A stretch of DNA of 49,168 bases from Escherichia phage 4A7: sequence record NC_049946.1. One strand, written 5' to 3'. The notes below the pieces were generated by a model that saw only the letters and a program-made list of their open reading frames with translations, had not been told where the DNA came from and made no database searches. Below, piece by piece: positions 18,865-27,584 of the stretch (position 1 is the stretch's first letter; every line of letters starts with the position of its first letter). The translations under genes were made by a program, and so were the position numbers.

Positions 18865-20793
18865 ATGGCAGTACAGATTTCAGGCGTGCTGAAAGACGGT
18901 GCAGGAAAACCGATACAGAACTGCACCATTCAGCTCAAAGCAAAACGTAACAGCACCACGGTTGTGGTGAACACGGTGGCCTCAGAAAATCCGGATGAAG
19001 CCGGACGTTACAGCATGGATGTCGAGTATGGCCAGTACAGCGTTATCCTGCTGGTTGAAGGTTTTCCGCCTTCACATGCCGGGACCATCACCGTGTATGA
19101 GGATTCTAAGCCGGGGACGCTGAATGATTTTCTGGGGGCCATGACGGAAGAGGATGTCATGCCGGAGGCATTGCGTCGTTTTGAGGTAATGGTGGAGGAT
19201 GTGGCACGCAACGCTGAAGCCGCCTCTCAGAGCGCAGCGGCAGCAAAGAAATCAGAAACAGCAGCGGCATCGTCCAGGAACGCGGCGAAAACATCAGAGA
19301 CGAATGCAGGTAACAGCGCGAAAGCGGCAGCTTCTTCAAAAACAGCCGCACAAAACGCAGCAACAGCGGCAGAACGTTCAGAGACAAATGCCCGTGCGTC
19401 AGAAGAAGCCTCCGCAGACAGTGAAGAGGCTTCCCGCCGTAATGCAGAGTCAGCCGCTGAAAATGCCGGAGTCGCCACCACAAAAGCGCGGGAGGCTGCA
19501 GCAGACGCAACAAAGGCCGGGCAGAAAAAGGATGAGGCTCTGTCGGCAGCGACACGAGCTGAAAAGGCGGCAGACCGCGCAGAAGCCGCAGCGGAAGTGA
19601 CTGCAGAGCCCTATGCGAATATAGTGCCGCCGCTGCCTGATGTGTGGATACCGTTTAACGATTCACTGGATATGATTGCGGGTTTTTCTCCGGGCTATAA
19701 AAAAATAGCTATTGGTGACGATGTGGTTCAGGTCGCCAGTGATAAACAGGTTAATTTCAGTCGCGCATCAACGGCAACATATATCAACAAATCTGGCGAA
19801 CTGAAAACGGCGGAAATTAATGAGCCGCGATTTGAGTGTGATGGCCTGCTTATTGAGGGACAAAGAACGAACTACATGCTCAATTCGGAAAGTCCAGCCA
19901 GCTGGGGGAAGTCATCAAACATGGATGTGCCCGAAACTGGGACGGATAGTTTTGGTTTTACTTATGGAAAGTTTGTCTGCAACGATTCTCTGGTTGGGCA
20001 AACTTCGGCTATTAATATGGCATCAATTGCTGCAACAAAGTCAGTTGATGTCTCAGGCGATAACAAGTACGTGACAACCTCATGCCGTTTTAAAACAGAA
20101 CGACAGGTAAGGTTACGTATACGGTTTGATAAGTATGATGGTAGTGCAACAACTTTTCTTGGCGATGCGTACATTGATACGCAAACGCTTGAAATTAATA
20201 TGACAGGTGGTGCTGCCGGCAGAATTACGGCACGAGTCAGGAAGGATAAGACCACGGGCTGGATTTTTGCAGAGGCAACGATTCAGGCAATTGATGGTGA
20301 GTTAAAAATAGGCTCTCAGATACAGTATTCTCCTGAGCAGGGTGGGGCAACAGTATCTGGTGACTATATTTATCTTGCCACCCCACAAGTAGAGAATGGG
20401 CCGTGTGTATCATCATTTATTATTTCAGGAGGCAGCGCAACGACAAGAGCCAGTGATTTGGTTAGTATCCCCACCAGAAATAATCTTTATAAGTTACCAT
20501 TTACTTTTTTACTTGAGATTCATAAAAACTGGGATATTGCACCAAACGCCGCACCCCGCGTGTGGGATATAGCAGCCAATACCGGGCAATCAGCAATTGC
20601 AGCAATCAACAGAGGTAGTGGTAAGTTATATATGAGTCTGTCAAACCCTTCAGGCTCGTATGTTAATAGCGCAGCGACAGATGTATTTGCAGAGAAAACC
20701 ACATTTGGATGTATTGCAAAAGCTGATGGTCACTTTCATGTGGTGACAAATGGTAAAGCGGTTAATGAAGTTTATTGTGAATATAATGGGTAA
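18865..20793 (+). pseudogene. stf: side tail fibre gene stf, 3'-truncated by the IS66-family insertion (the stop codon is supplied by the IS end)
   Basis: N-terminus matches lambda Stf as recalled (MAVQISGVLKDGAGKPIQNCTIQLKAKRNSTTVVVNTV...GRYSMDVEYGQYSVIL), then an Ala-rich repeat region. The reading frame resumes after the IS at 23322. Confidence 0.8.
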
Positions 20794-20874
20794 GCGTAAA
20801 CTGACCGCCGTATGTAGCCATCAGACGAGAATTGGTAACTTAGACGCCCATCTGATATAGACGGACATCTAAGT

Positions 20875-21300
20875 ATGGAATTACAGGACTGGCGAAAAGA
20901 ACCTCGTAAAAACTATTCGAATGAATTCAAACTTCGTATGGTGGAACTGGCATCACAACCTGGAGCTTGTGTTGCACAGATTGCACGTGAAAATGGCGTC
21001 AATGATAATGTTATTTTCAAATGGCTCAGGCTCTGGCAGAACGAAGGGCGTGTTTCGCGGCGTCTTCCGGTAACGACCTCTTCTGACACTGGCGTTGAAT
21101 TATTACCTGTAGAAATAACGCCGGATGAGCAGAAAGAACCTGTGGCGGCCATTGCGCCGTCTTTATCCACTTCCACTCAGACCAGAGTCAGTGCCAGTTC
21201 CTGCAAGGTGGAATTCCGTCACGGTAACATGACGCTGGAAAATCCATCGCCAGAGCTGCTCACAGTGTTGATCCGTGAACTGACCGGGAGGGGAAGATGA
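20875..21300 (+). CDS. tnpA: IS66-family accessory protein TnpA (Orf1)
   Basis: First ORF of the IS66-type triad; HTH-like N-terminus. Confidence 0.8.
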   Translation: MELQDWRKEPRKNYSNEFKLRMVELASQPGACVAQIARENGVNDNVIFKWLRLWQNEGRVSRRLPVTTSSDTGVELLPVEITPDEQKEPVAAIAPSLSTSTQTRVSASSCKVEFRHGNMTLENPSPELLTVLIRELTGRGR

Positions 21301-21647
21301 TCTCACTCCCATCAGGTACCCGTATCTGGCTCGTTGCCGGCGTTACCGATATGCGTAAATCCTTCAACGGACTGGGAGAACAGGTACAACATGTGCTGAA
21401 TGATAATCCCTTCTCCGGTCACCTGTTTATCTTCCGTGGCCGACGGGGTGACACCGTCAAAATTCTTTGGGCTGATGCTGATGGTCTGTGCCTGTTCACC
21501 AAACGCCTGGAGGAAGGCCAGTTTATCTGGCCTGCGGTACGTGACGGCAAGGTATCCATTACCCGCTCGCAACTGGCAATGCTCCTCGATAAGCTGGACT
21601 GGCGTCAGCCAAAAACATCCAGCCGTAACTCACTGACAATGTTGTAA
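21297..21647 (+). CDS. tnpB: IS66-family Orf2 (TnpB)
   Basis: 116-aa ORF overlapping tnpA (ATGA), typical of IS66 orf2. Confidence 0.8.
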   Translation: MISLPSGTRIWLVAGVTDMRKSFNGLGEQVQHVLNDNPFSGHLFIFRGRRGDTVKILWADADGLCLFTKRLEEGQFIWPAVRDGKVSITRSQLAMLLDKLDWRQPKTSSRNSLTML

Positions 21648-21677
21648 AAAACTCCTGACCGCATTATAAAAACGGTC

Positions 21678-23291
21678 ATGAGTCAGAAATACCTCATTCG
21701 CATCGCAGAGCTGGAAAGGTTGCTCTCTGAGCAGGCTGAAGCCCTCCGTCAGAAAGACCAGCAACTGAGTCTGGTTGAAGAGACGGAAGCCTTCCTGCGC
21801 TCTGCACTGACACGTGCCGAAGAAAAGATCGAAGAAGATGAACGGGAAATAGAACATCTGCGGGCTCAGATAGAAAAACTGCGCCGGATGCTGTTCGGTA
21901 CCCGTTCTGAAAAACTGCGTCGTGAAGTTGAACTGGCTGAGGCTCTGCTGAAACAACGTGAACAGGACAGCGATCGTTACAGTGGGCGGGAAGACGATCC
22001 TCAGGTTCCCCGCCAGTTGCGACAGTCGCGCCATCGTCGTCCGTTACCGGCACACCTTCCCCGTGAAATACACCGCCTGGAGCCAGAAGAAAGCTGTTGC
22101 CCGGAGTGTGGCGGTGAGCTGGATTATCTGGGGGAAGTCAGCGCTGAACAGCTGGAACTGGTGAGCAGTGCCCTGAAAGTGATCCGCACAGAACGGGTAA
22201 AAAAAGCCTGTACAAAATGTGACTGTATTGTTGAAGCACCGGCGCCGTCCCGCCCGATAGAGCGTGGTATCGCGGGCCCCGGATTACTTGCCCGCGTGTT
22301 AACGGGAAAATACTGCGAACATCTGCCACTGTATCGTCAGAGTGAAATCTTTGCCCGCCAGGGTGTCGAACTGAGCCGGGCCTTACTCTCCAACTGGGTT
22401 GACGCGTGCTGCCAGTTAATGACACCGGTGAATGATGCCCTGTACCGTTATGTAATGAATACCCGCAAGGTTCACACTGATGACACACCGGTAAAGGTAC
22501 TGGCACCGGGTCAGAAAAAGGCGAAAACAGGGCGTATCTGGACGTATGTCCGGGATGATCGCAATGTGGGTTCGTCATCTCCTCCAGCGGTCTGGTTCGC
22601 GTACTCGCCGAACCGGCAGGGGAAACACCCGGAGCAACACCTCCGCCCCTTCCGGGGTATCCTGCAGGCGGATGCGTTCACAGGTTACGACAGGTTGTTC
22701 AGTGCAGAACGTGAAGGTGGTGCACTGACAGAAGTTGCGTGCTGGGCCCATGCCCGGCGAAAAATCCACGATGTATACATCAGCAGCAAAAGTGCGACGG
22801 CAGAAGAAGCCCTGAAGCGAATCAGTGAACTGTACGCCATCGAGGATGAAATACGGGGATTACCGGAGTCAGAGCGTCTTGCCGTCAGGCAGCAGCGAAG
22901 CAAAGTGTTACTGACGTCGCTGCATGAATGGATGGTGGAGAAGAATGGTACGCTGTCGAAAAAATCCAGACTGGGCGAAGCGTTCAGCTATGTACTGAAT
23001 CAGTGGGATGCCCTCTGTTATTACAGTGATGACGGTCTGGCGGAGGCGGATAATAATGCTGCGGAAAGAGCGCTTCGTGCAGTCTGTCTCGGAAAGAAAA
23101 ACTTTATGTTCTTTGGCAGCGATCACGGCGGCGAGCGTGGAGCACTGTTGTACGGGCTGATCGGCACCTGCCGTCTGAACGGTATCGATCCGGAAGCGTA
23201 TCTGCGCCATATCCTGAGCGTACTGCCGGAATGGCCTTCCAACCGAGTTGACGAACTCCTGCCATGGAACGTAGTACTCACCAATAAATAA
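21678..23291 (+). CDS. tnpC: IS66-family transposase (TnpC)
   Basis: 537 aa with an N-terminal coiled coil/leucine zipper, a CxxC...CxxC zinc motif and a DDE-type core; position and size typical of IS66 TnpC. Confidence 0.85.
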   Translation: MSQKYLIRIAELERLLSEQAEALRQKDQQLSLVEETEAFLRSALTRAEEKIEEDEREIEHLRAQIEKLRRMLFGTRSEKLRREVELAEALLKQREQDSDRYSGREDDPQVPRQLRQSRHRRPLPAHLPREIHRLEPEESCCPECGGELDYLGEVSAEQLELVSSALKVIRTERVKKACTKCDCIVEAPAPSRPIERGIAGPGLLARVLTGKYCEHLPLYRQSEIFARQGVELSRALLSNWVDACCQLMTPVNDALYRYVMNTRKVHTDDTPVKVLAPGQKKAKTGRIWTYVRDDRNVGSSSPPAVWFAYSPNRQGKHPEQHLRPFRGILQADAFTGYDRLFSAEREGGALTEVACWAHARRKIHDVYISSKSATAEEALKRISELYAIEDEIRGLPESERLAVRQQRSKVLLTSLHEWMVEKNGTLSKKSRLGEAFSYVLNQWDALCYYSDDGLAEADNNAAERALRAVCLGKKNFMFFGSDHGGERGALLYGLIGTCRLNGIDPEAYLRHILSVLPEWPSNRVDELLPWNVVLTNK

Positions 23292-23321
23292 GCGTCAATA
23301 CGGTGCTCCGTTGACGCTTAC

Positions 23322-23462
23322 TATAATGGCGTGACCGCTGATAAAAATATCCGATTTGGAGGGCAGACGAATACTGGAGAACGACATCTGTTTGGCCATA
23401 TTCGCAATTTCCGCATATGGCATAAAGAATTAAATGACAGGCAATTAAAAGAGGTCGTATGA
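23322..23462 (+). pseudogene. stf: displaced 3' end of stf (43 codons) downstream of the IS
   Basis: After removing the IS and one TSD copy, the stf frame continues (GVTADKNIRF...LKEVV) to a TGA at 23460-23462 that overlaps the ATG of the next gene. Confidence 0.6.
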
Positions 23463-23737
23463 AAGATTTAACTTTGAAGTTTCATGACAAACTGCAGTTT
23501 AAGGCCTTCCTGTCATCTCTTGGCTGGGCGGAAGATGAAGACCTCCAGAATAAACTGTTAGTTGATGAAATTGGTTTCACCTACACAGAAACAGGGGTAA
23601 CAGAAGAGGGAGAACCTGTCTGTATCCGGAATGATGGTTATTTTGTCAACATTCGCATTCTTGATGACTTGTTTGATGTTTCTGTATTCTCTGATTATGT
23701 CGTGGAGCTGGAAACACCGCTTCGGGAATGGAGCTGA
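23459..23737 (+). CDS. hypothetical protein, translationally coupled to the original stf stop (possible small tail-fibre chaperone)
   Basis: 92-aa ORF with AAGAGG RBS; its ATG overlaps the native stf stop (ATGA). No recognised homologue. Confidence 0.45.
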   Translation: MKDLTLKFHDKLQFKAFLSSLGWAEDEDLQNKLLVDEIGFTYTETGVTEEGEPVCIRNDGYFVNIRILDDLFDVSVFSDYVVELETPLREWS

Positions 23738-23749
23738 AAGGAGGAAATA

Positions 23750-24043
23750 ATGGATATAAGCCCCTTACTTCATGCACTTTGTGCTGTGGCTGCGCAGATA
23801 CTGGTTGGTCTTTTTACCGGAAACTGGGCTTACGGAGCGATAGCCGGTTGTACGTTCTTCATTGCGCGTGAACATACCCAGGCAGAATATCGCTGGATTG
23901 AAATGTTCGGGCATGGCAAGCGAATGAATATGCCGTGGTGGGGCGGTTTTGATCCGCGTGCTTGGGATGTGGCAAGCCTGATGGATTTTGCTGTGCCGGT
24001 GGTGGCGTGTCTGCTGGTCTGGCTGTTGGTTAATCGTGGGTGA
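23750..24043 (+). CDS. hypothetical small membrane protein
   Basis: 97-aa ORF with a strong AGGAGG RBS and two hydrophobic segments. Confidence 0.45.
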   Translation: MDISPLLHALCAVAAQILVGLFTGNWAYGAIAGCTFFIAREHTQAEYRWIEMFGHGKRMNMPWWGGFDPRAWDVASLMDFAVPVVACLLVWLLVNRG

Positions 24044-24134
24044 AAAAAGGTGAGCTGTATATGCAACGGAGGAAGAAACCCCGTTGCTGGAAGCCAGGAA
24101 AAAGTATCGGGTGTTGCTGTCCTCGGATGTTGTG

Positions 24135-24992
24135 CTAATTGGGTGATAACAGATCCTGTGTATGGGAGTTTCCCTTTTTGCGTGCGTTGATGCTGGTAAC
24201 GGCAAACGTCATGATGAACAAAACCGCGAATAAGACGACAATCGTCGGAGCTGGTGCGCTGTCGATAAAAAAGGACAACCAGACACCAGTCATTGACACT
24301 ATTACCGATATGCCAGTCGCCAGTAGGAGCGCAATATGAAAGCGTTGTGTCAGGAGTACCGCAATGGCGCCAGGCGCAATGAGCAGAGAAATGGAGAGAA
24401 TGATACCTACCGCTTTCAGCGTCGCCACAATGGTCAGAGAGACCATGCACAGCAGCCCATAATGCAGCCATCTCGTATGCAAACCGCTTACCTGCGCCTG
24501 TTGATAATCAAAGCTGAACAGCAAAAAATCCCGCCATTTTACGCTAATAACAAGTGTAACCAGCCCGGCAATAATCATCGTCTGGATTATATCGCCGATG
24601 GTTATCCCGAGCATGTCGCCGAAAAGAATATGGTCAAGATGTACGTCTGGTTTGACTGCAATATACAAGATCAGACCTGCGGCAAACATGCCAGAAAAAA
24701 CAATCCCCATCACTGTATCTTGCTTGATTCGGCTGTTGTCTTTCAGGTATCCCGTCGCCACCGCGCAGAATACTCCGGCGACGAATGCCCCTGTAGCCAA
24801 AGGTAACCCCAGAATCCAGGCAAGCACGATGCCAGGAAAAACCGCATGACTCATCGCGTCACCCATCAGTGCCCAACCTTTCAGGACCAGAAAGACCGAC
24901 AGCAGCGCACAGGGTATGGAAACTACCAGTGAAATCAGCAGTGCGTGACTCATAAAGGTGAACTGCAGTGGCTCCAGTAATAATGCCATCAT
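24135..24992 (-). CDS. sitD: Mn/Fe ABC transporter permease SitD
   Basis: 285-aa polytopic membrane protein, last gene of the sitABCD-type operon, overlapping sitC. Confidence 0.85.
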   Translation of the reverse strand: MMALLLEPLQFTFMSHALLISLVVSIPCALLSVFLVLKGWALMGDAMSHAVFPGIVLAWILGLPLATGAFVAGVFCAVATGYLKDNSRIKQDTVMGIVFSGMFAAGLILYIAVKPDVHLDHILFGDMLGITIGDIIQTMIIAGLVTLVISVKWRDFLLFSFDYQQAQVSGLHTRWLHYGLLCMVSLTIVATLKAVGIILSISLLIAPGAIAVLLTQRFHIALLLATGISVIVSMTGVWLSFFIDSAPAPTIVVLFAVLFIMTFAVTSINARKKGNSHTQDLLSPN

Positions 24993-25846
24993 GAGCGATC
25001 CTCCAGCGCCTTATGCGCACGCCGACGATTTGCCAAAAGCCCATGGGTGGGCGCAAAGACAAATGCTAAAAGAAACAGCAGTGTCTGCGCCACCACGATG
25101 ATTCCACCTGTCGCGCCGTCCAGAAAGTAACTGACCCACGCGCCGAGGAAACTGGTTACACTGCCAATAGTTACAGCAATCATGAGCAGGCGGGGAAAAC
25201 GATCGGTTAACAACCATGCTGTTGCACCGGGAGTCACCACCAGACAGATCACCAGAAAGGCACCAACCGTTTGCAGCGCCGCAACGGTCGAAACCGACAG
25301 CAGGGTGAAGAAGAGGAGTTTTAATCTGCCCGGATGCAATCCAATAGCACGGGCGTGATTCTCGTCGAAAAAGGTCACCATAAGATCTTTCCATTTGAAA
25401 AAAAGCACGATGATCGAGAGAATGCCAATGATAGTGAGTTGCAGGATATCCGCCGGATCGATTGCCAGAATATTGCCCAGGACGATGGTCTGAATGTTCA
25501 CAGATGTCGGGTTCAATGACACCATAAACAGCCCCAGGCCAAAAAAGGACGAGAAGATCAGACCGATGATGGCATCTTCTTTTAAGCGGGTGCGTTGGTT
25601 AAGAAACAGCATGCTGCCCGCAGCCAGTCCGCCGGAAAAGAAGGCTCCCAGAGAAAACGGAAGCCCCAGCATATATGCCCCCGCAACACCCGGGACAATA
25701 GAGTGCGACAACGCATCGCCAATCAGCGACCAGCCTTTTAGCATCAGATAGCATGACAGGAAAGCGCAGAGACCGCCGACCATCGCCGAGACCCACATCG
25801 CATTGAGCATATATTCATAGCTGAAGGGTTCCAGTAGCACGTTCAT
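24989..25846 (-). CDS. sitC: Mn/Fe ABC transporter permease SitC
   Basis: 285-aa polytopic membrane protein, paralogous to sitD; overlaps sitB. Confidence 0.85.
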
Positions 25847-26670
25847 CTTTCTTCCCTCTGCACCGCTGACGGTCGATGAGCCACAAAAGGGCGTTCATCG
25901 TCAGTAATAATGCTTTCTTCCGAGCCGTTAAGTGTGACATGGCGCAGTACGCCGCTAAAAGCCAGCTCTAGGTTCTCGGCTGTAAAAGTGGTGTCTGTCG
26001 GCCCGCTTGCCAGGACGGTGCCTTTGACCATGACCGTATAATCGCAAAATGTCGTGACGGATCCGAGATTGTGTGTTGAGACAAGCATCGTTTTGCCTTC
26101 CGCGCGTAACTCCCTCAACAGGCTGATGATTTTGGCTTCGGTTTTCACATCAACGCCAGTAAAAGGTTCATCCAGCAGGATCACATCACCCTGCTGTGCA
26201 ATCGCTCTCGCCAGAAAGACGCGTTTCTTTTGTCCACCGGAAAGCTCGCCGATTTGTCGATGGCGAAAATTCACCATATCGACACGTTCCAGCGCATCGG
26301 TGACAATTTGACGATCCCTCTTTTTGGCGATACGCAACATACCCATATGCCCATAGCGGCCCATCATCACCACATCTTCCACCAGTACAGGAAATGACCA
26401 GTCAACCTCTTCTGACTGAGGGACGTAGGCAACCAGGTTTTTCTGTAACGCCTGTCGCGTGGGAATACCCAGAACAGATATCTTTCCGCTGGTCAGACGC
26501 ACAAATCCCATAATCGCTTTAAACAACGTCGATTTTCCGGAACCGTTTACCCCAACCAGAGCGGCAATAGATCCACTTGGTACTGTGAAGGATGCATCGC
26601 GCAGTGCTGTGTGCCCGTTATGCCAGGTGACAGCAACATCATTAACGACAATGCCTGCAGATTGCATCAT
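25843..26670 (-). CDS. sitB: Mn/Fe ABC transporter ATP-binding protein SitB
   Basis: Walker [13 protein letters not shown] signature LSGGQKKR, Walker B ILLDEP. Confidence 0.9.
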
Positions 26671-27584
26671 TATTTCTCCCTTTTCCCGGCTTTAATTCCC
26701 TGTACCAGCGTACTGGTAGTAACCTTAAGAAGGTCGATATACGTCGGTACCGGGCCGTTTTCTGTGCTCAGGGAATCGACATAGAGCACACCGCCGTAGT
26801 GTGCGCCGGTTTCACGCGCAACCTGACGCGCTGGTTTATCGGAAATCGTACTCTCGCTAAAGACTGCCGGGATATGATTTTTCTTAACTATATCAACAAC
26901 CTTACGTACCTGCTGCGGTGTTCCTTGTTGATCGGCATTAATCGGCCACAGATAAAGCTCTTTTAGCCCCAAATCGCGTGCGAGATAAGAAAAAGCCCCT
27001 TCACTGGTGACCATCCATCGCTGATTCTCAGGGAGTTCCGTAATCTGCTTACGCAGGGGGGCAAGGGTTTGGGTAATCTTGGCTTTATAAGTATCGGCAT
27101 TGCGTTGGTAGGTTTGTGCATTTGCCGGATCGTATTTTATCAACGCATCACGAATATTATCGACGTAAATCAGAGCATTATCTGGCGACATCCATGCATG
27201 GGGGTTAGGTTTGCCCTCATAGGGTCCTTCGGTGATCCCTACAGGCGTCACACCCGAAGAGACAATTACTTCTGGAACCCCATTGAGATGCTGGTAAAAG
27301 CGTTGGAACCACAATTCCAGATTCATACCATTGGCGAGAATCAGTTGTGCCCCCTGCGCACGTTTAATATCGCCAGGGGTAGGCTGATACTCATGAATTT
27401 CTGCACCAGGCTTGGTTATGGATGAGACTTCTGCAGCATCTCCCGCCACGTTTTTGGCCATATCCGCGATGATGGTAAATGTTGTAATGACCTTAAATTT
27501 TTCAGTTGCACTTGCCTGAAATGCGATCGAGCAGGTGAGTGCGAGGCCCCCCAAGAGCATGGTTACTTTTTTTATTGAGCGCAT
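26670..27584 (-). CDS. sitA: periplasmic Mn/Fe-binding protein SitA
   Basis: 304 aa with signal peptide; cluster-9 (MntC/YfeA/SitA-type) solute-binding protein; first gene of the operon. Confidence 0.9.

What the first reader, a model, noticed from the sequence alone, without database searches (positions are those of the whole stretch)
23459..24043. Two small genes coupled to the side tail fibre gene where a Tfa chaperone would be expected
A 92-aa ORF begins at the ATGA that terminates the native stf frame (translational coupling), and a 97-aa membrane protein with a strong AGGAGG RBS follows. Neither resembles lambda Tfa (~194 aa). They may be a small fibre chaperone and a membrane-acting moron (for example superinfection exclusion).
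Basis: inference. Interest (0 to 1): 0.35.

Follow-up and report, generated by a model that had tools for sequence, protein, structure and literature searches.

The report
Two conserved genes after side-tail-fibre gene
Both small genes after the (here IS-broken) side tail fibre gene are real: the 92-aa protein always accompanies this fibre type in both temperate and virulent phages and is probably a new kind of fibre accessory protein, while the 97-aa protein belongs to a strongly conserved, uncharacterised small membrane-protein family also found outside phages.

Summary
ORF92 (23459-23737) starts in the ATGA that ends the native stf frame. ORF97 (23750-24043) has an AGGAGG site and three predicted membrane helices. 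Both are under purifying selection (dN/dS 0.31 and 0.18-0.20). Neither matches Tfa or any Pfam, NCBIfam, PADLOC or PDB entry; they fall in PHROGs 1361 and 1443, function unknown.

ORF92 strictly accompanies one fibre distal domain (LamG/"GTA spike fibre" type). It was present in 77/77 viral loci found through the fibre and in 9/9 genome loci, always coupled by ATGA/GTGA. It also occurs in virulent T1-, T5-, 9g- and Dhillonvirus-like phages and in Comamonas, Pantoea and Chelativorans prophages. Published RNA-seq shows co-induction with stf. It is best read as a non-Tfa fibre accessory protein (chaperone or junction adaptor).

ORF97 is separable. Its GC is higher, and it occurs with other fibre types and as a chromosomal gene in Aeromonas, Leclercia and sphingomonads. 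It is a pseudogene in a virulent phage. In the Tritos prophage it sits behind a terminator-like hairpin and is silent in the lysogen. It is a late-transcribed membrane passenger of unknown activity, not a demonstrated moron.

In this window an ISEc23-type element removes the last 43 Stf residues, so ORF92 has lost its coupling.

The parts
18865..20793 (+). 5' part of the side tail fibre gene stf. It is truncated after ...CEYNG and runs into a stop inside the IS left end.
   Evidence: Pfam phage_tail_N E 5e-69; PHROG 1419 and 5939 'tail protein'; NCBIfam GTA_spike_fiber domain at residues 331-531. Compared with the intact 686-aa Stf of phage 21.
20790..23321 (+). IS66-family element (ISEc23-like) inserted in stf. 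Three ORFs at 20875-21300, 21297-21647 and 21678-23291; imperfect inverted repeats at 20790-20813 and 23298-23321; 8-bp target duplication TATAATGG at 20782-20789 and 23322-23329.
   Evidence: RefSeq annotation 'IS66-like element ISEc23 family transposase'.
23331..23462 (+). 3' remnant of stf: the last 43 codons (VTADKNIRF...LKEVV) plus the stop. This is the end of the LamG-like domain.
   Evidence: Identical to the C-terminus of phage 21 Stf; weak Laminin_G_3 and PHROG 1419 matches.
23459..23737 (+). ORF92: acidic (pI 4.2) soluble alpha/beta protein of PHROG 1361. The invariable companion of this fibre type and a candidate fibre accessory protein.
23739..23744 (+). AGGAGG ribosome-binding site of ORF97, 5 nt before the ATG.
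   Evidence: The spacer TGAAAGGAGGAAATAATG is conserved in 43 IMG/VR loci.
23750..24043 (+). ORF97: small membrane protein with three predicted helices, PHROG 1443 (UniRef name 'Ybl63'). Near-invariant core AREHTQAEYRWI...MPWWGGFD.

Best explanation
The two genes are independent modules that share the 3' end of the side-tail-fibre transcription unit.

(1) ORF92 is the cognate accessory protein of side or lateral tail fibres whose distal part is the LamG-like 'GTA spike fibre' domain (PHROG 1419/5939). It is made in step with the fibre through a 4-nt stop/start overlap. It acts in the cytoplasm on, or remains attached to, the conserved C-terminal end of that domain. Its role would be either an assembly factor replacing Tfa or a small junction piece. 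Both roles are inferred.

(2) ORF97 is a member of a deeply conserved small inner-membrane protein family that temperate phages of several morphotypes carry directly after their receptor-binding-protein genes. It is transcribed by read-through of the late/fibre transcript rather than from a promoter of its own. Its biochemical activity is unknown. The most likely use is a late-expressed envelope function such as exclusion or receptor/entry blocking (inferred, low confidence).

(3) In this window an ISEc23-type element has cut off the last 43 residues of Stf. The fibre is therefore probably non-functional, as in laboratory lambda, and ORF92 is uncoupled from it.
For: ORF92 and the fibre.
- All 80 IMG/VR loci found through ORF92 have the Stf-type C-terminus ending at or 1-3 nt before ORF92.
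- In the reverse search, 77/77 loci with a complete Stf distal domain have ORF92 directly downstream. The three without it are IS-interrupted.
- Among 52 species-representative genome loci, 9 carry this fibre domain. All 9 have an ORF92-family gene, and none of the others does.
- The start overlap is ATGA in 49 loci and GTGA in 31.
- The family occurs in 156 phage records, including virulent Seuratvirus, Nonagvirus, Tequintavirus, Drexlerviridae and Dhillonvirus. It is always adjacent to the lateral tail fibre gene, which excludes a lysogeny-only role.
- Distant members sit in the same position in Comamonas and Pantoea, and in permuted order in Chelativorans.
- ORF92 GC (41.9 %) matches the stf 3' end (40.9 %).
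- RNA-seq of LF82 shows stf and ORF92 co-induced in macrophages in two prophages: log2FC 4.85 and 3.73 in Perceval, 5.37 and 7.85 in Tritos. J changes only 2.05 and 1.72.
- The window has no Tfa, APC or S74 homologue.

ORF97 as a separate module.
- GC is 52.7 %.
- It occurs after other fibre or tailspike types in phiHAP-1, an Aeromonas P22-like phage, and Acidovorax and Leclercia prophages.
- It occurs in non-phage chromosomal contexts in Aeromonas, Leclercia/Silvania and sphingomonads.
- It is absent from the virulent phages' fibre modules and is a pseudogene in phage HC6.
- The Tritos copy lies behind a terminator-like hairpin and is silent in the lysogen.

IS insertion.
Against: - No physical interaction, virion proteomics or genetics is available for either protein.
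- ORF92 identity correlates only weakly with the last 200 fibre residues (Spearman 0.28-0.31). ORF92 93-99 % identical occurs with fibre ends only 37-59 % identical, which is unlike specificity-matched chaperones.
- The ORF92 fold has no resemblance to any known chaperone (best PDB Foldseek E 0.05, TM about 0.4).
- ORF97's co-location with the fibre and ORF92 even in permuted order could mean the three genes are functionally linked after all.
- ORF97 topology is unresolved. The positive-inside rule puts the conserved loop in the cytoplasm, whereas the phage 21 record annotates N-in/C-in with 2 TMDs.
- The lysogen RNA-seq covers only five conditions.
Confidence: 0.6

Rival explanations
1. ORF92 is a structural junction adaptor, not a folding chaperone. 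It would sit on the conserved C-terminal end of the first fibre and dock the conserved N-terminal peptide (M[AV]TxT[VI]IPxDIxxLK) of a second, exchangeable fibre, giving branched fibres. In two-gene modules such as this window it would remain as a cap.
For: - Virulent phages and Tritos-type lambdoids have a three-gene module: fibre, ORF92, then a second fibre with its own S74 domain or Tfa.
- The second fibres share the N-terminal motif across lambda-, T1-, T5- and 9g-like phages and a locus with a different, non-lambdoid fibre N-terminus (L203).
- In Tritos versus L203 the fibre ends are 85-96 % identical, but ORF92 is 48 % and the second fibre's first 30 residues are 37 % identical. In Tritos versus L186 the fibre ends are 50-61 % identical, but ORF92 is 92 % and the second fibre's first 30 residues are 97 %.
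- Stoichiometric coupling to the fibre.
- bas32_0023 is annotated 'tail fiber protein' by its depositors.
Against: - ORF92 stays intact (78/79) and under purifying selection in two-gene modules that have no second fibre. The window has no protein carrying the docking motif.
- The Comamonas and Pantoea modules have no second fibre downstream.
- The ORF92 versus second-fibre N-terminus correlation is weak (rho 0.42, n=21) and could reflect linkage alone.
Confidence: 0.3
2. ORF97 is a superinfection-exclusion or entry-blocking protein, analogous to Cor, HK97 gp15 or T4 Imm. It would be made late and/or in lysogens and would insert in the inner membrane to stop incoming phage DNA or mask a receptor pathway.
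For: - It is a small membrane protein placed directly after receptor-binding-protein genes in temperate sipho-, myo- and podoviruses. That position is where Cor-type exclusion genes sit in small siphoviruses (PMC11990801).
- It is decayed in a virulent phage.
- Its GC differs from the fibre module.
Against: - No PADLOC or Pfam match.
- It is not expressed in the lysogen in Tritos and is below the moron threshold in Perceval.
- It retains 45-60 % identity and 19 invariant residues across proteobacterial classes, and it has syntenic chromosomal copies in Aeromonas, Leclercia and sphingomonads. This looks more like a conserved biochemical activity than an arms-race protein.
Confidence: 0.3
3. Fibre, ORF92 and ORF97 form one functional unit. 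For example, ORF97 would be a membrane partner that works with ORF92 during fibre maturation, or would protect the producing cell from its own fibres.
For: - The three genes are neighbours from E. coli to Comamonas and Pantoea. In Chelativorans the order is fibre-ORF97-ORF92, with an ATGA overlap between the fibre and ORF97.
- ORF97 follows ORF92 by 12-16 nt in 77/77 IMG/VR loci long enough to show it.
- Both are co-induced with stf in Perceval.
Against: - ORF92 occurs without ORF97 in the virulent-phage modules inspected (KurtStettler, IrisVonRoten, PeterMerian, Lindwurm, rolling), and the ORF97 search recovered no intact copy in the T1-, T5-, 9g- or Dhillonvirus-type phages.
- ORF97 occurs without ORF92 or this fibre in 43 of 52 genome loci.
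- In Tritos ORF97 is separated from the fibre genes by a terminator-like hairpin and is not co-expressed.
Confidence: 0.08

Closest known systems
Lambda Tfa / P2 gpG / Mu gpU tail fibre assembly proteins (Pfam Caudo_TAP; also Phage_tail_APC)
   Same: A gene immediately downstream of the fibre gene whose product is needed with the fibre. A true Tfa occupies the equivalent position after the second fibre in locus L203, and an APC-type protein is present in the Comamonas module.
   Different: ORF92 has no sequence or fold similarity to these proteins. It is half their size, and it is associated with a LamG-like fibre end rather than the lambda/T4 gp37-type tip.
Separate S74-like fibre chaperones acting as transient 'caps' (Alteromonas phages V22 and A5; PMC10579305)
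   Same: A small protein encoded after the fibre gene and proposed to stay on the fibre tip. The fibre-plus-partner module is shared between unrelated phage families.
   Different: Those chaperones resemble the intramolecular Peptidase_S74 domain. ORF92 does not.
Branched lateral tail fibres of T5-like phage DT57C (LtfA/LtfB with the LtfC collar; PMC4728585, PMC10713586)
   Same: A second fibre hangs on the first. In DT57C a small beta-sheet protein (LtfC) grips the N-terminal strands of a fibre. ORF92-containing modules also have a second fibre with a conserved N-terminal peptide.
   Different: LtfC is encoded upstream of the fibre and sits at the tail, not at the fibre's distal end. No homology to ORF92 was detected, and DT57C-type modules are not described as having a small gene between ltfA and ltfB.
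RcGTA head spike fibre domain (NCBIfam NF048003)
   Same: The Stf distal domain that ORF92 accompanies matches this domain model (E 7.6e-15).
   Different: Here the domain is part of a tail side fibre. Whether the GTA locus has an ORF92 relative could not be checked.
Cor (T1, phi80, N15), HK97 gp15, T4 Imm/Sp: small exclusion proteins encoded next to receptor-binding genes
   Same: Like ORF97 they are small envelope proteins located beside receptor-binding-protein genes.
   Different: No homology to ORF97. The ORF97 family is far more conserved and has chromosomal, non-phage members.

Membership tests
Tail fibre assembly protein Tfa (Pfam Caudo_TAP) / Phage_tail_APC | Significant match to the family profile | tested here: not met
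   Pfam scan at E<=1 gives only noise for ORF92 and ORF97. tblastn of a Tfa and an APC protein against the window gives E>0.9.
Tail fibre assembly protein Tfa (functional class) | Encoded directly after the fibre gene and required for fibre folding | tested here: inconclusive
   The position is met, with a 4-nt overlap. The requirement for folding cannot be tested in silico.
Peptidase_S74 intramolecular / separate chaperone | S74 domain match or fold | tested here: not met
   No Pfam match. Foldseek against PDB gives no hit below E 0.05. The S74 domain is present instead in the second fibre of Tritos.
PHROG 1361 / 18574 (function unknown) | Full-length profile match | tested here: met
   ORF92 matches phrog_1361 at E 3.2e-42 over residues 1-91. 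Distant members match phrog_18574.
PHROG 1443 (function unknown) | Full-length profile match | tested here: met
   ORF97 matches phrog_1443 at E 2.4e-58 over residues 1-96.
Moron | Own promoter and terminator | tested here: not met
   No sigma-70-like promoter or intrinsic-terminator-like site in 23200-24300. This is a simple consensus scan only.
Moron | Expressed from the repressed prophage | tested here: not met
   [quoted passage not shown] Mean fpkm+5 in LB is 11.5 for Perceval ORF97, against 6.2 for J, 6.7 for stf and 32.4 for sitD. The Tritos homologue has 1-17 raw reads in all 10 samples. Perceval ORF97 rises only together with stf and ORF92.
Moron | Composition different from neighbouring phage genes | tested here: met
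   ORF97 GC is 52.7 %, against 41.9 % for ORF92 and 40.9 % for the stf end.
Known anti-phage defence / exclusion proteins | Match to a PADLOC model | tested here: not met
   No hit at E<=1 for either protein.
Holin / antiholin | Small membrane protein encoded in the lysis cassette | tested here: not met
   In the window and in phage 21, ORF97 lies at the end of the tail genes next to sitABCD. Only in some Comamonas prophages does a lysis-like cassette follow it. Holin activity itself is not testable here.

The most novel reading that the evidence does not exclude
ORF92 defines a universal plug-in junction for modular fibres. The junction would consist of the conserved LamG-type fibre end (...HLFGHxRNFRIWHKxLTDxQ), the 92-aa protein, and the conserved N-terminal peptide M[AV]TxT[VI]IPxDIxxLK of a second fibre. 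This three-part connector would be shared by lambda-, T1-, T5-, 9g-, Dhillonvirus-like and other phages and would let receptor-binding fibres be swapped as cassettes. Separately, ORF97 would be a cellular-type small membrane protein that temperate phages recruit as a late envelope effector.
Probability: 0.25. Interest if true: 0.7.

Novelty: new variant of a known kind. Interest (0 to 1): 0.42.

Why it matters
Side and lateral tail fibres set the host range of many E. coli phages and are being re-engineered for phage therapy and DNA delivery. Chimeric fibres often fail for lack of the right accessory protein. This work points to a 92-aa protein that always accompanies one very common fibre type. 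It is present in about a third of complete E. coli genomes and in T1-, T5-, 9g- and lambda-like phages, yet it is annotated only as 'hypothetical'. That makes it an obvious, cheap candidate to include in engineered fibres or to test by deletion. The 97-aa protein is a strongly conserved membrane-protein family with no Pfam or NCBIfam model. It is shared by phages and bacterial chromosomes, so its function would be informative for both. The finding is not a new kind of system; it fills in unannotated parts of a known module.

Tried and rejected
- Pfam, NCBIfam and PADLOC scans found nothing for either protein.
- PDB sequence-profile searches found nothing.
- Foldseek of both confident AlphaFold2 models against PDB gave no meaningful hits: ORF92 best E 0.05 with TM about 0.4 to ribosomal or PII-like folds, ORF97 best E 1.8 to PsaL.
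- Foldseek of ORF92 against BFVD returned only uncharacterised phage proteins.
- Large TPR and PKD proteins in the exhaustive HMM search were checked and dismissed as repeat-driven false hits.
- The search for related loci with the broad alignment A3 failed because no stretch was conserved enough.
- Literature searches for phage 21/sitABCD, Stf chaperones, BASEL lateral-fibre loci, DT57C LtfA/B, 'ybl63' and Queuovirinae virion proteomics found no characterisation of either family.
- Co-variation of ORF92 with segments of the fibre or with the second fibre's N-terminus was too weak and too confounded by linkage to separate chaperone from adaptor.
- A link between ORF97 and the adjacent sitABCD operon was considered and dropped. 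sit is on the other strand and is absent from most loci carrying ORF97.
- A holin role for ORF97 was considered because a lysis-like cassette follows it in Comamonas. It was rejected for the lambdoids because of the gene's position.

Full report
**What is in the window.** The region is part of a lambdoid phage genome. It is 100 % identical to Escherichia virus Lambda_4C10 and phages 1W and 3W, and 99.9 % identical to prophage Perceval of E. coli LF82.

The side tail fibre gene stf (18865-20793) carries phage_tail_N, PHROG 1419/5939 'tail protein' and an NCBIfam 'GTA_spike_fiber' domain. An IS66-family (ISEc23-like) element interrupts it at 20790-23321. The element has imperfect terminal inverted repeats and an 8-bp target duplication, TATAATGG.

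Comparison with the intact 686-aa Stf of phage 21 shows that the insertion removes the last 43 residues. These are still encoded at 23331-23462. The same IS/stf junction occurs in 126 of 5,426 complete E. coli genomes.

ORF92 (23459-23737) begins with the ATG of the ATGA that ends this remnant. ORF97 (23750-24043) follows after 12 nt that contain AGGAGG. The sitDCBA operon then converges from the other strand. The one caveat is that in this window ORF92 overlaps only a dead fragment of stf.

**Both ORFs are genes.**
- Across IMG/VR alleles, dN/dS is 0.31 for ORF92 and 0.18-0.20 for ORF97. 78 of 79 ORF92 copies are intact.
- AlphaFold2 on family alignments gives confident models. ORF92 has pLDDT 90 and a beta-alpha-alpha-beta4 fold. 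ORF97 has pLDDT 92.6 and three helices.
- Both are transcribed in strain LF82.
- They belong to PHROG 1361 and PHROG 1443, both of unknown function.
- Pfam, NCBIfam, PADLOC, PDB sequence profiles and Foldseek against PDB give nothing.
- BFVD returns only uncharacterised phage proteins.
- The only name found is 'Ybl63' for ORF97 in UniRef. No literature on either family was found (and the other searches).

**ORF92 belongs to the fibre.**
- All 80 viral loci found through ORF92 have a Stf-type gene ending at or 1-3 nt before its start.
- In the reverse search with the Stf distal domain, 77 of 77 loci with a complete domain have ORF92 directly downstream. The three exceptions are IS-interrupted stf genes.
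- The stop/start overlap is ATGA in 49 loci and GTGA in 31.
- A profile search of 1.84 billion representatives, followed by an alignment-seeded search, widened the family to 589 clusters. Members are 85-110 aa and share MKDLxLKF...GYHVNxR...PxRVWA.
- By tblastn the family is in 156 phage records. These include virulent Seuratvirus (KurtStettler bas22_0023), Nonagvirus (JenP1), Tequintavirus (IrisVonRoten, Lindwurm), Drexlerviridae (PeterMerian and many others) and Dhillonvirus (rolling). In the rows listed it almost always abuts the lateral tail fibre gene, and this was confirmed in the five records opened. A role confined to lysogeny is therefore excluded.
- In species-representative genomes, 9 of 52 loci that hold an ORF97 relative also hold a fibre with this distal domain. 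All 9 have an ORF92-family gene, and no other locus does.
- In Comamonas and Pantoea the distal domain is a separate 388-402-aa protein (PHROG 5939) followed by ORF92. In some of these ORF92 is fused to a further ~90-aa domain of unknown function.
- In Chelativorans the order is fibre, ORF97, ORF92.
- ORF92 shares the low GC of the stf 3' end.
- No Tfa-, APC- or S74-type protein is encoded anywhere in the window.

**Published transcriptomes agree.** I re-read tables S1 and S4 of Misson et al. 2023 (PMC9928086). The table shows log2 fold change for LF82 inside macrophages at 6 h versus LB.

| Prophage | stf | ORF92 homologue | second fibre | ORF97 homologue | J | other |
|---|---|---|---|---|---|---|
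| Perceval | 4.85 | 3.73 | none | 3.0 | 2.05 | lom -2.07 |
| Tritos | 5.37 | 7.85 | 6.21 | 0.21 (1-17 raw reads in every sample) | 1.72 | tail assembly -0.65 |

A terminator-like hairpin (GGGGCCGAGCGCCCC followed by GTTTTATT) lies between the second fibre gene and ORF97 in Tritos. None of the ORF97 homologues is among the genes the authors list as lysogen-expressed morons in LB.

ORF92 is therefore part of the fibre transcription unit. ORF97 is transcribed only when it abuts that unit, or presumably under late antitermination.

**Chaperone or adaptor?** Many modules have three genes: fibre, ORF92, then a second fibre that carries its own S74 domain or is followed by a true Tfa. These second fibres share an N-terminal motif, M[AV]TxT[VI]IPxDIxxLK, across lambda-, T1-, T5- and 9g-like phages and a locus with a different, non-lambdoid fibre N-terminus (L203).

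ORF92 identity tracks the last 200 fibre residues poorly (rho about 0.3). Two comparisons are informative:
- Tritos versus L203: same fibre end, different ORF92 and different second fibre.
- Tritos versus L186: different fibre end, same ORF92 and same second fibre.

In both, ORF92 travels with the second fibre. This fits an adaptor but may be mere linkage.

Against a pure adaptor role, ORF92 stays intact and constrained in two-gene modules such as this window. These have no second fibre and no protein with the docking motif. I rate a fibre-linked role at about 0.85. Within that, an assembly factor is slightly more likely than a structural junction piece.

**ORF97 is a separate family.**
- 55 aligned members from Escherichia to Comamonas, Aeromonas and others share 19 invariant positions. 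These include H8, Q16, R40-E41, Q44-W49 and MP..GGF. Homologues in sphingomonads and other alphaproteobacteria (44-49 % identical) extend the family further.
- It follows tail fibre, tailspike or Tfa genes in temperate phages of all three morphotypes. Examples are the lambdoids, the Halomonas myovirus phiHAP-1, a P22-like Aeromonas phage, and Comamonas, Acidovorax and Leclercia prophages.
- It is also a stand-alone chromosomal gene in conserved non-phage neighbourhoods. In Aeromonas it lies between pirin and RIO1 genes. In Leclercia and Silvania it lies near dcp, a MetE-like gene, and ydbK with a porin gene. In sphingomonads it follows ligA.
- It is missing from the virulent phages' fibre modules. 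In the HC6 group of 47.7-kb phages only a remnant with an in-frame stop remains.
- Its GC (52.7 %) differs from ORF92.
- The positive-inside rule places the conserved loop in the cytoplasm: 5.5 K+R in the loop against 0.3 or fewer in the tails. This conflicts with the topology annotated for phage 21.
- Its activity is unknown. A late envelope function such as exclusion is a reasonable guess. The deep conservation and the cellular copies suggest instead a defined biochemical activity on a conserved host component.

**Verdict.** The finding is real and its interpretation is partly right. ORF92 is a previously uncharacterised, non-Tfa companion of a very common fibre type. ORF97 is an unrelated conserved membrane-protein family riding at the operon end, and it is not a demonstrated moron. 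In this particular window the fibre gene is broken, so the module is probably inactive. Overall this is a moderately interesting annotation gap with a clear experimental path.

Noticed in passing
window 20782-23329: An ISEc23-like IS66-family element with an 8-bp target duplication (TATAATGG) truncates Stf by 43 residues. This resembles the stf frameshift of laboratory lambda. The identical junction is present in 126 of 5,426 complete E. coli genomes, and the deposited phages Lambda_4C10, 1W, 3W and D2 carry the same insertion.
   Followed up: partly
window 24135-27584 (- strand): A sitDCBA manganese/iron transporter operon is carried as phage cargo, convergent with ORF97. It is also present in phage 21 and Perceval, where it is expressed in the lysogen (PMC9928086).
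   Followed up: partly
LF82 prophages Perceval and Tritos (homologues of window 18865-24043); PMC9928086 tables S1/S4: The stf-ORF92(-second fibre) unit is induced 13- to 230-fold inside macrophages. J and the tail assembly genes stay near background. This implies a promoter upstream of or within stf that is independent of the late operon, or relief of silencing of this AT-rich DNA. I did not find it discussed in the parts of the paper I searched.
   Followed up: partly
L003 3927-3990; L140 4789-4850; L141 4789-4850; L142 4792-4850; L203 3685-3750; L225 4778-4840: The second fibre proteins encoded after ORF92 homologues share a conserved N-terminal peptide, M[AV]TxT[VI]IPxDIxxLK, in lambda-, T1-, T5- and 9g-like phages and in locus L203, whose fibre has a different N-terminus. 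Their C-terminal parts and their chaperones (S74 or Tfa) are unrelated.
   Followed up: partly
L114 6526-8590 (Chelativorans sp.): The gene order is permuted to fibre-ORF97-ORF92. An ATGA overlap links the fibre gene to the ORF97 homologue. This is the only case seen where ORF97 rather than ORF92 is coupled to the fibre.
   Followed up: partly
L104 7484-7999; L108 7432-7998; L115 7432-7998: In Pantoea and Comamonas prophages the ORF92 domain is fused to a ~90-aa C-terminal domain that matches PHROG 6034 (function unknown).
   Followed up: no
L224 3965-4162 (Escherichia phage HC6 and about five relatives): An unannotated remnant of the ORF97 family, with an in-frame stop and no N-terminal helices, lies directly after an 859-aa fibre whose C-terminal sequence resembles the S74-type chaperone ends seen in the other second fibres (not scanned) in these 47.7-kb siphoviruses.
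   Followed up: partly
L007, L092, L094, L098, L099 (Aeromonas spp.); L131, L135 (alphaproteobacterial MAGs): ORF97 homologues sit in conserved chromosomal, non-phage neighbourhoods: after a pirin gene in Aeromonas and after ligA in the alphaproteobacterial genomes. The family therefore also has a cellular role.
   Followed up: partly
window 19200-19560: The Ala/Ser/Glu-rich repetitive shaft region of Stf produces long spurious ORFs in several frames on both strands.
   Followed up: no
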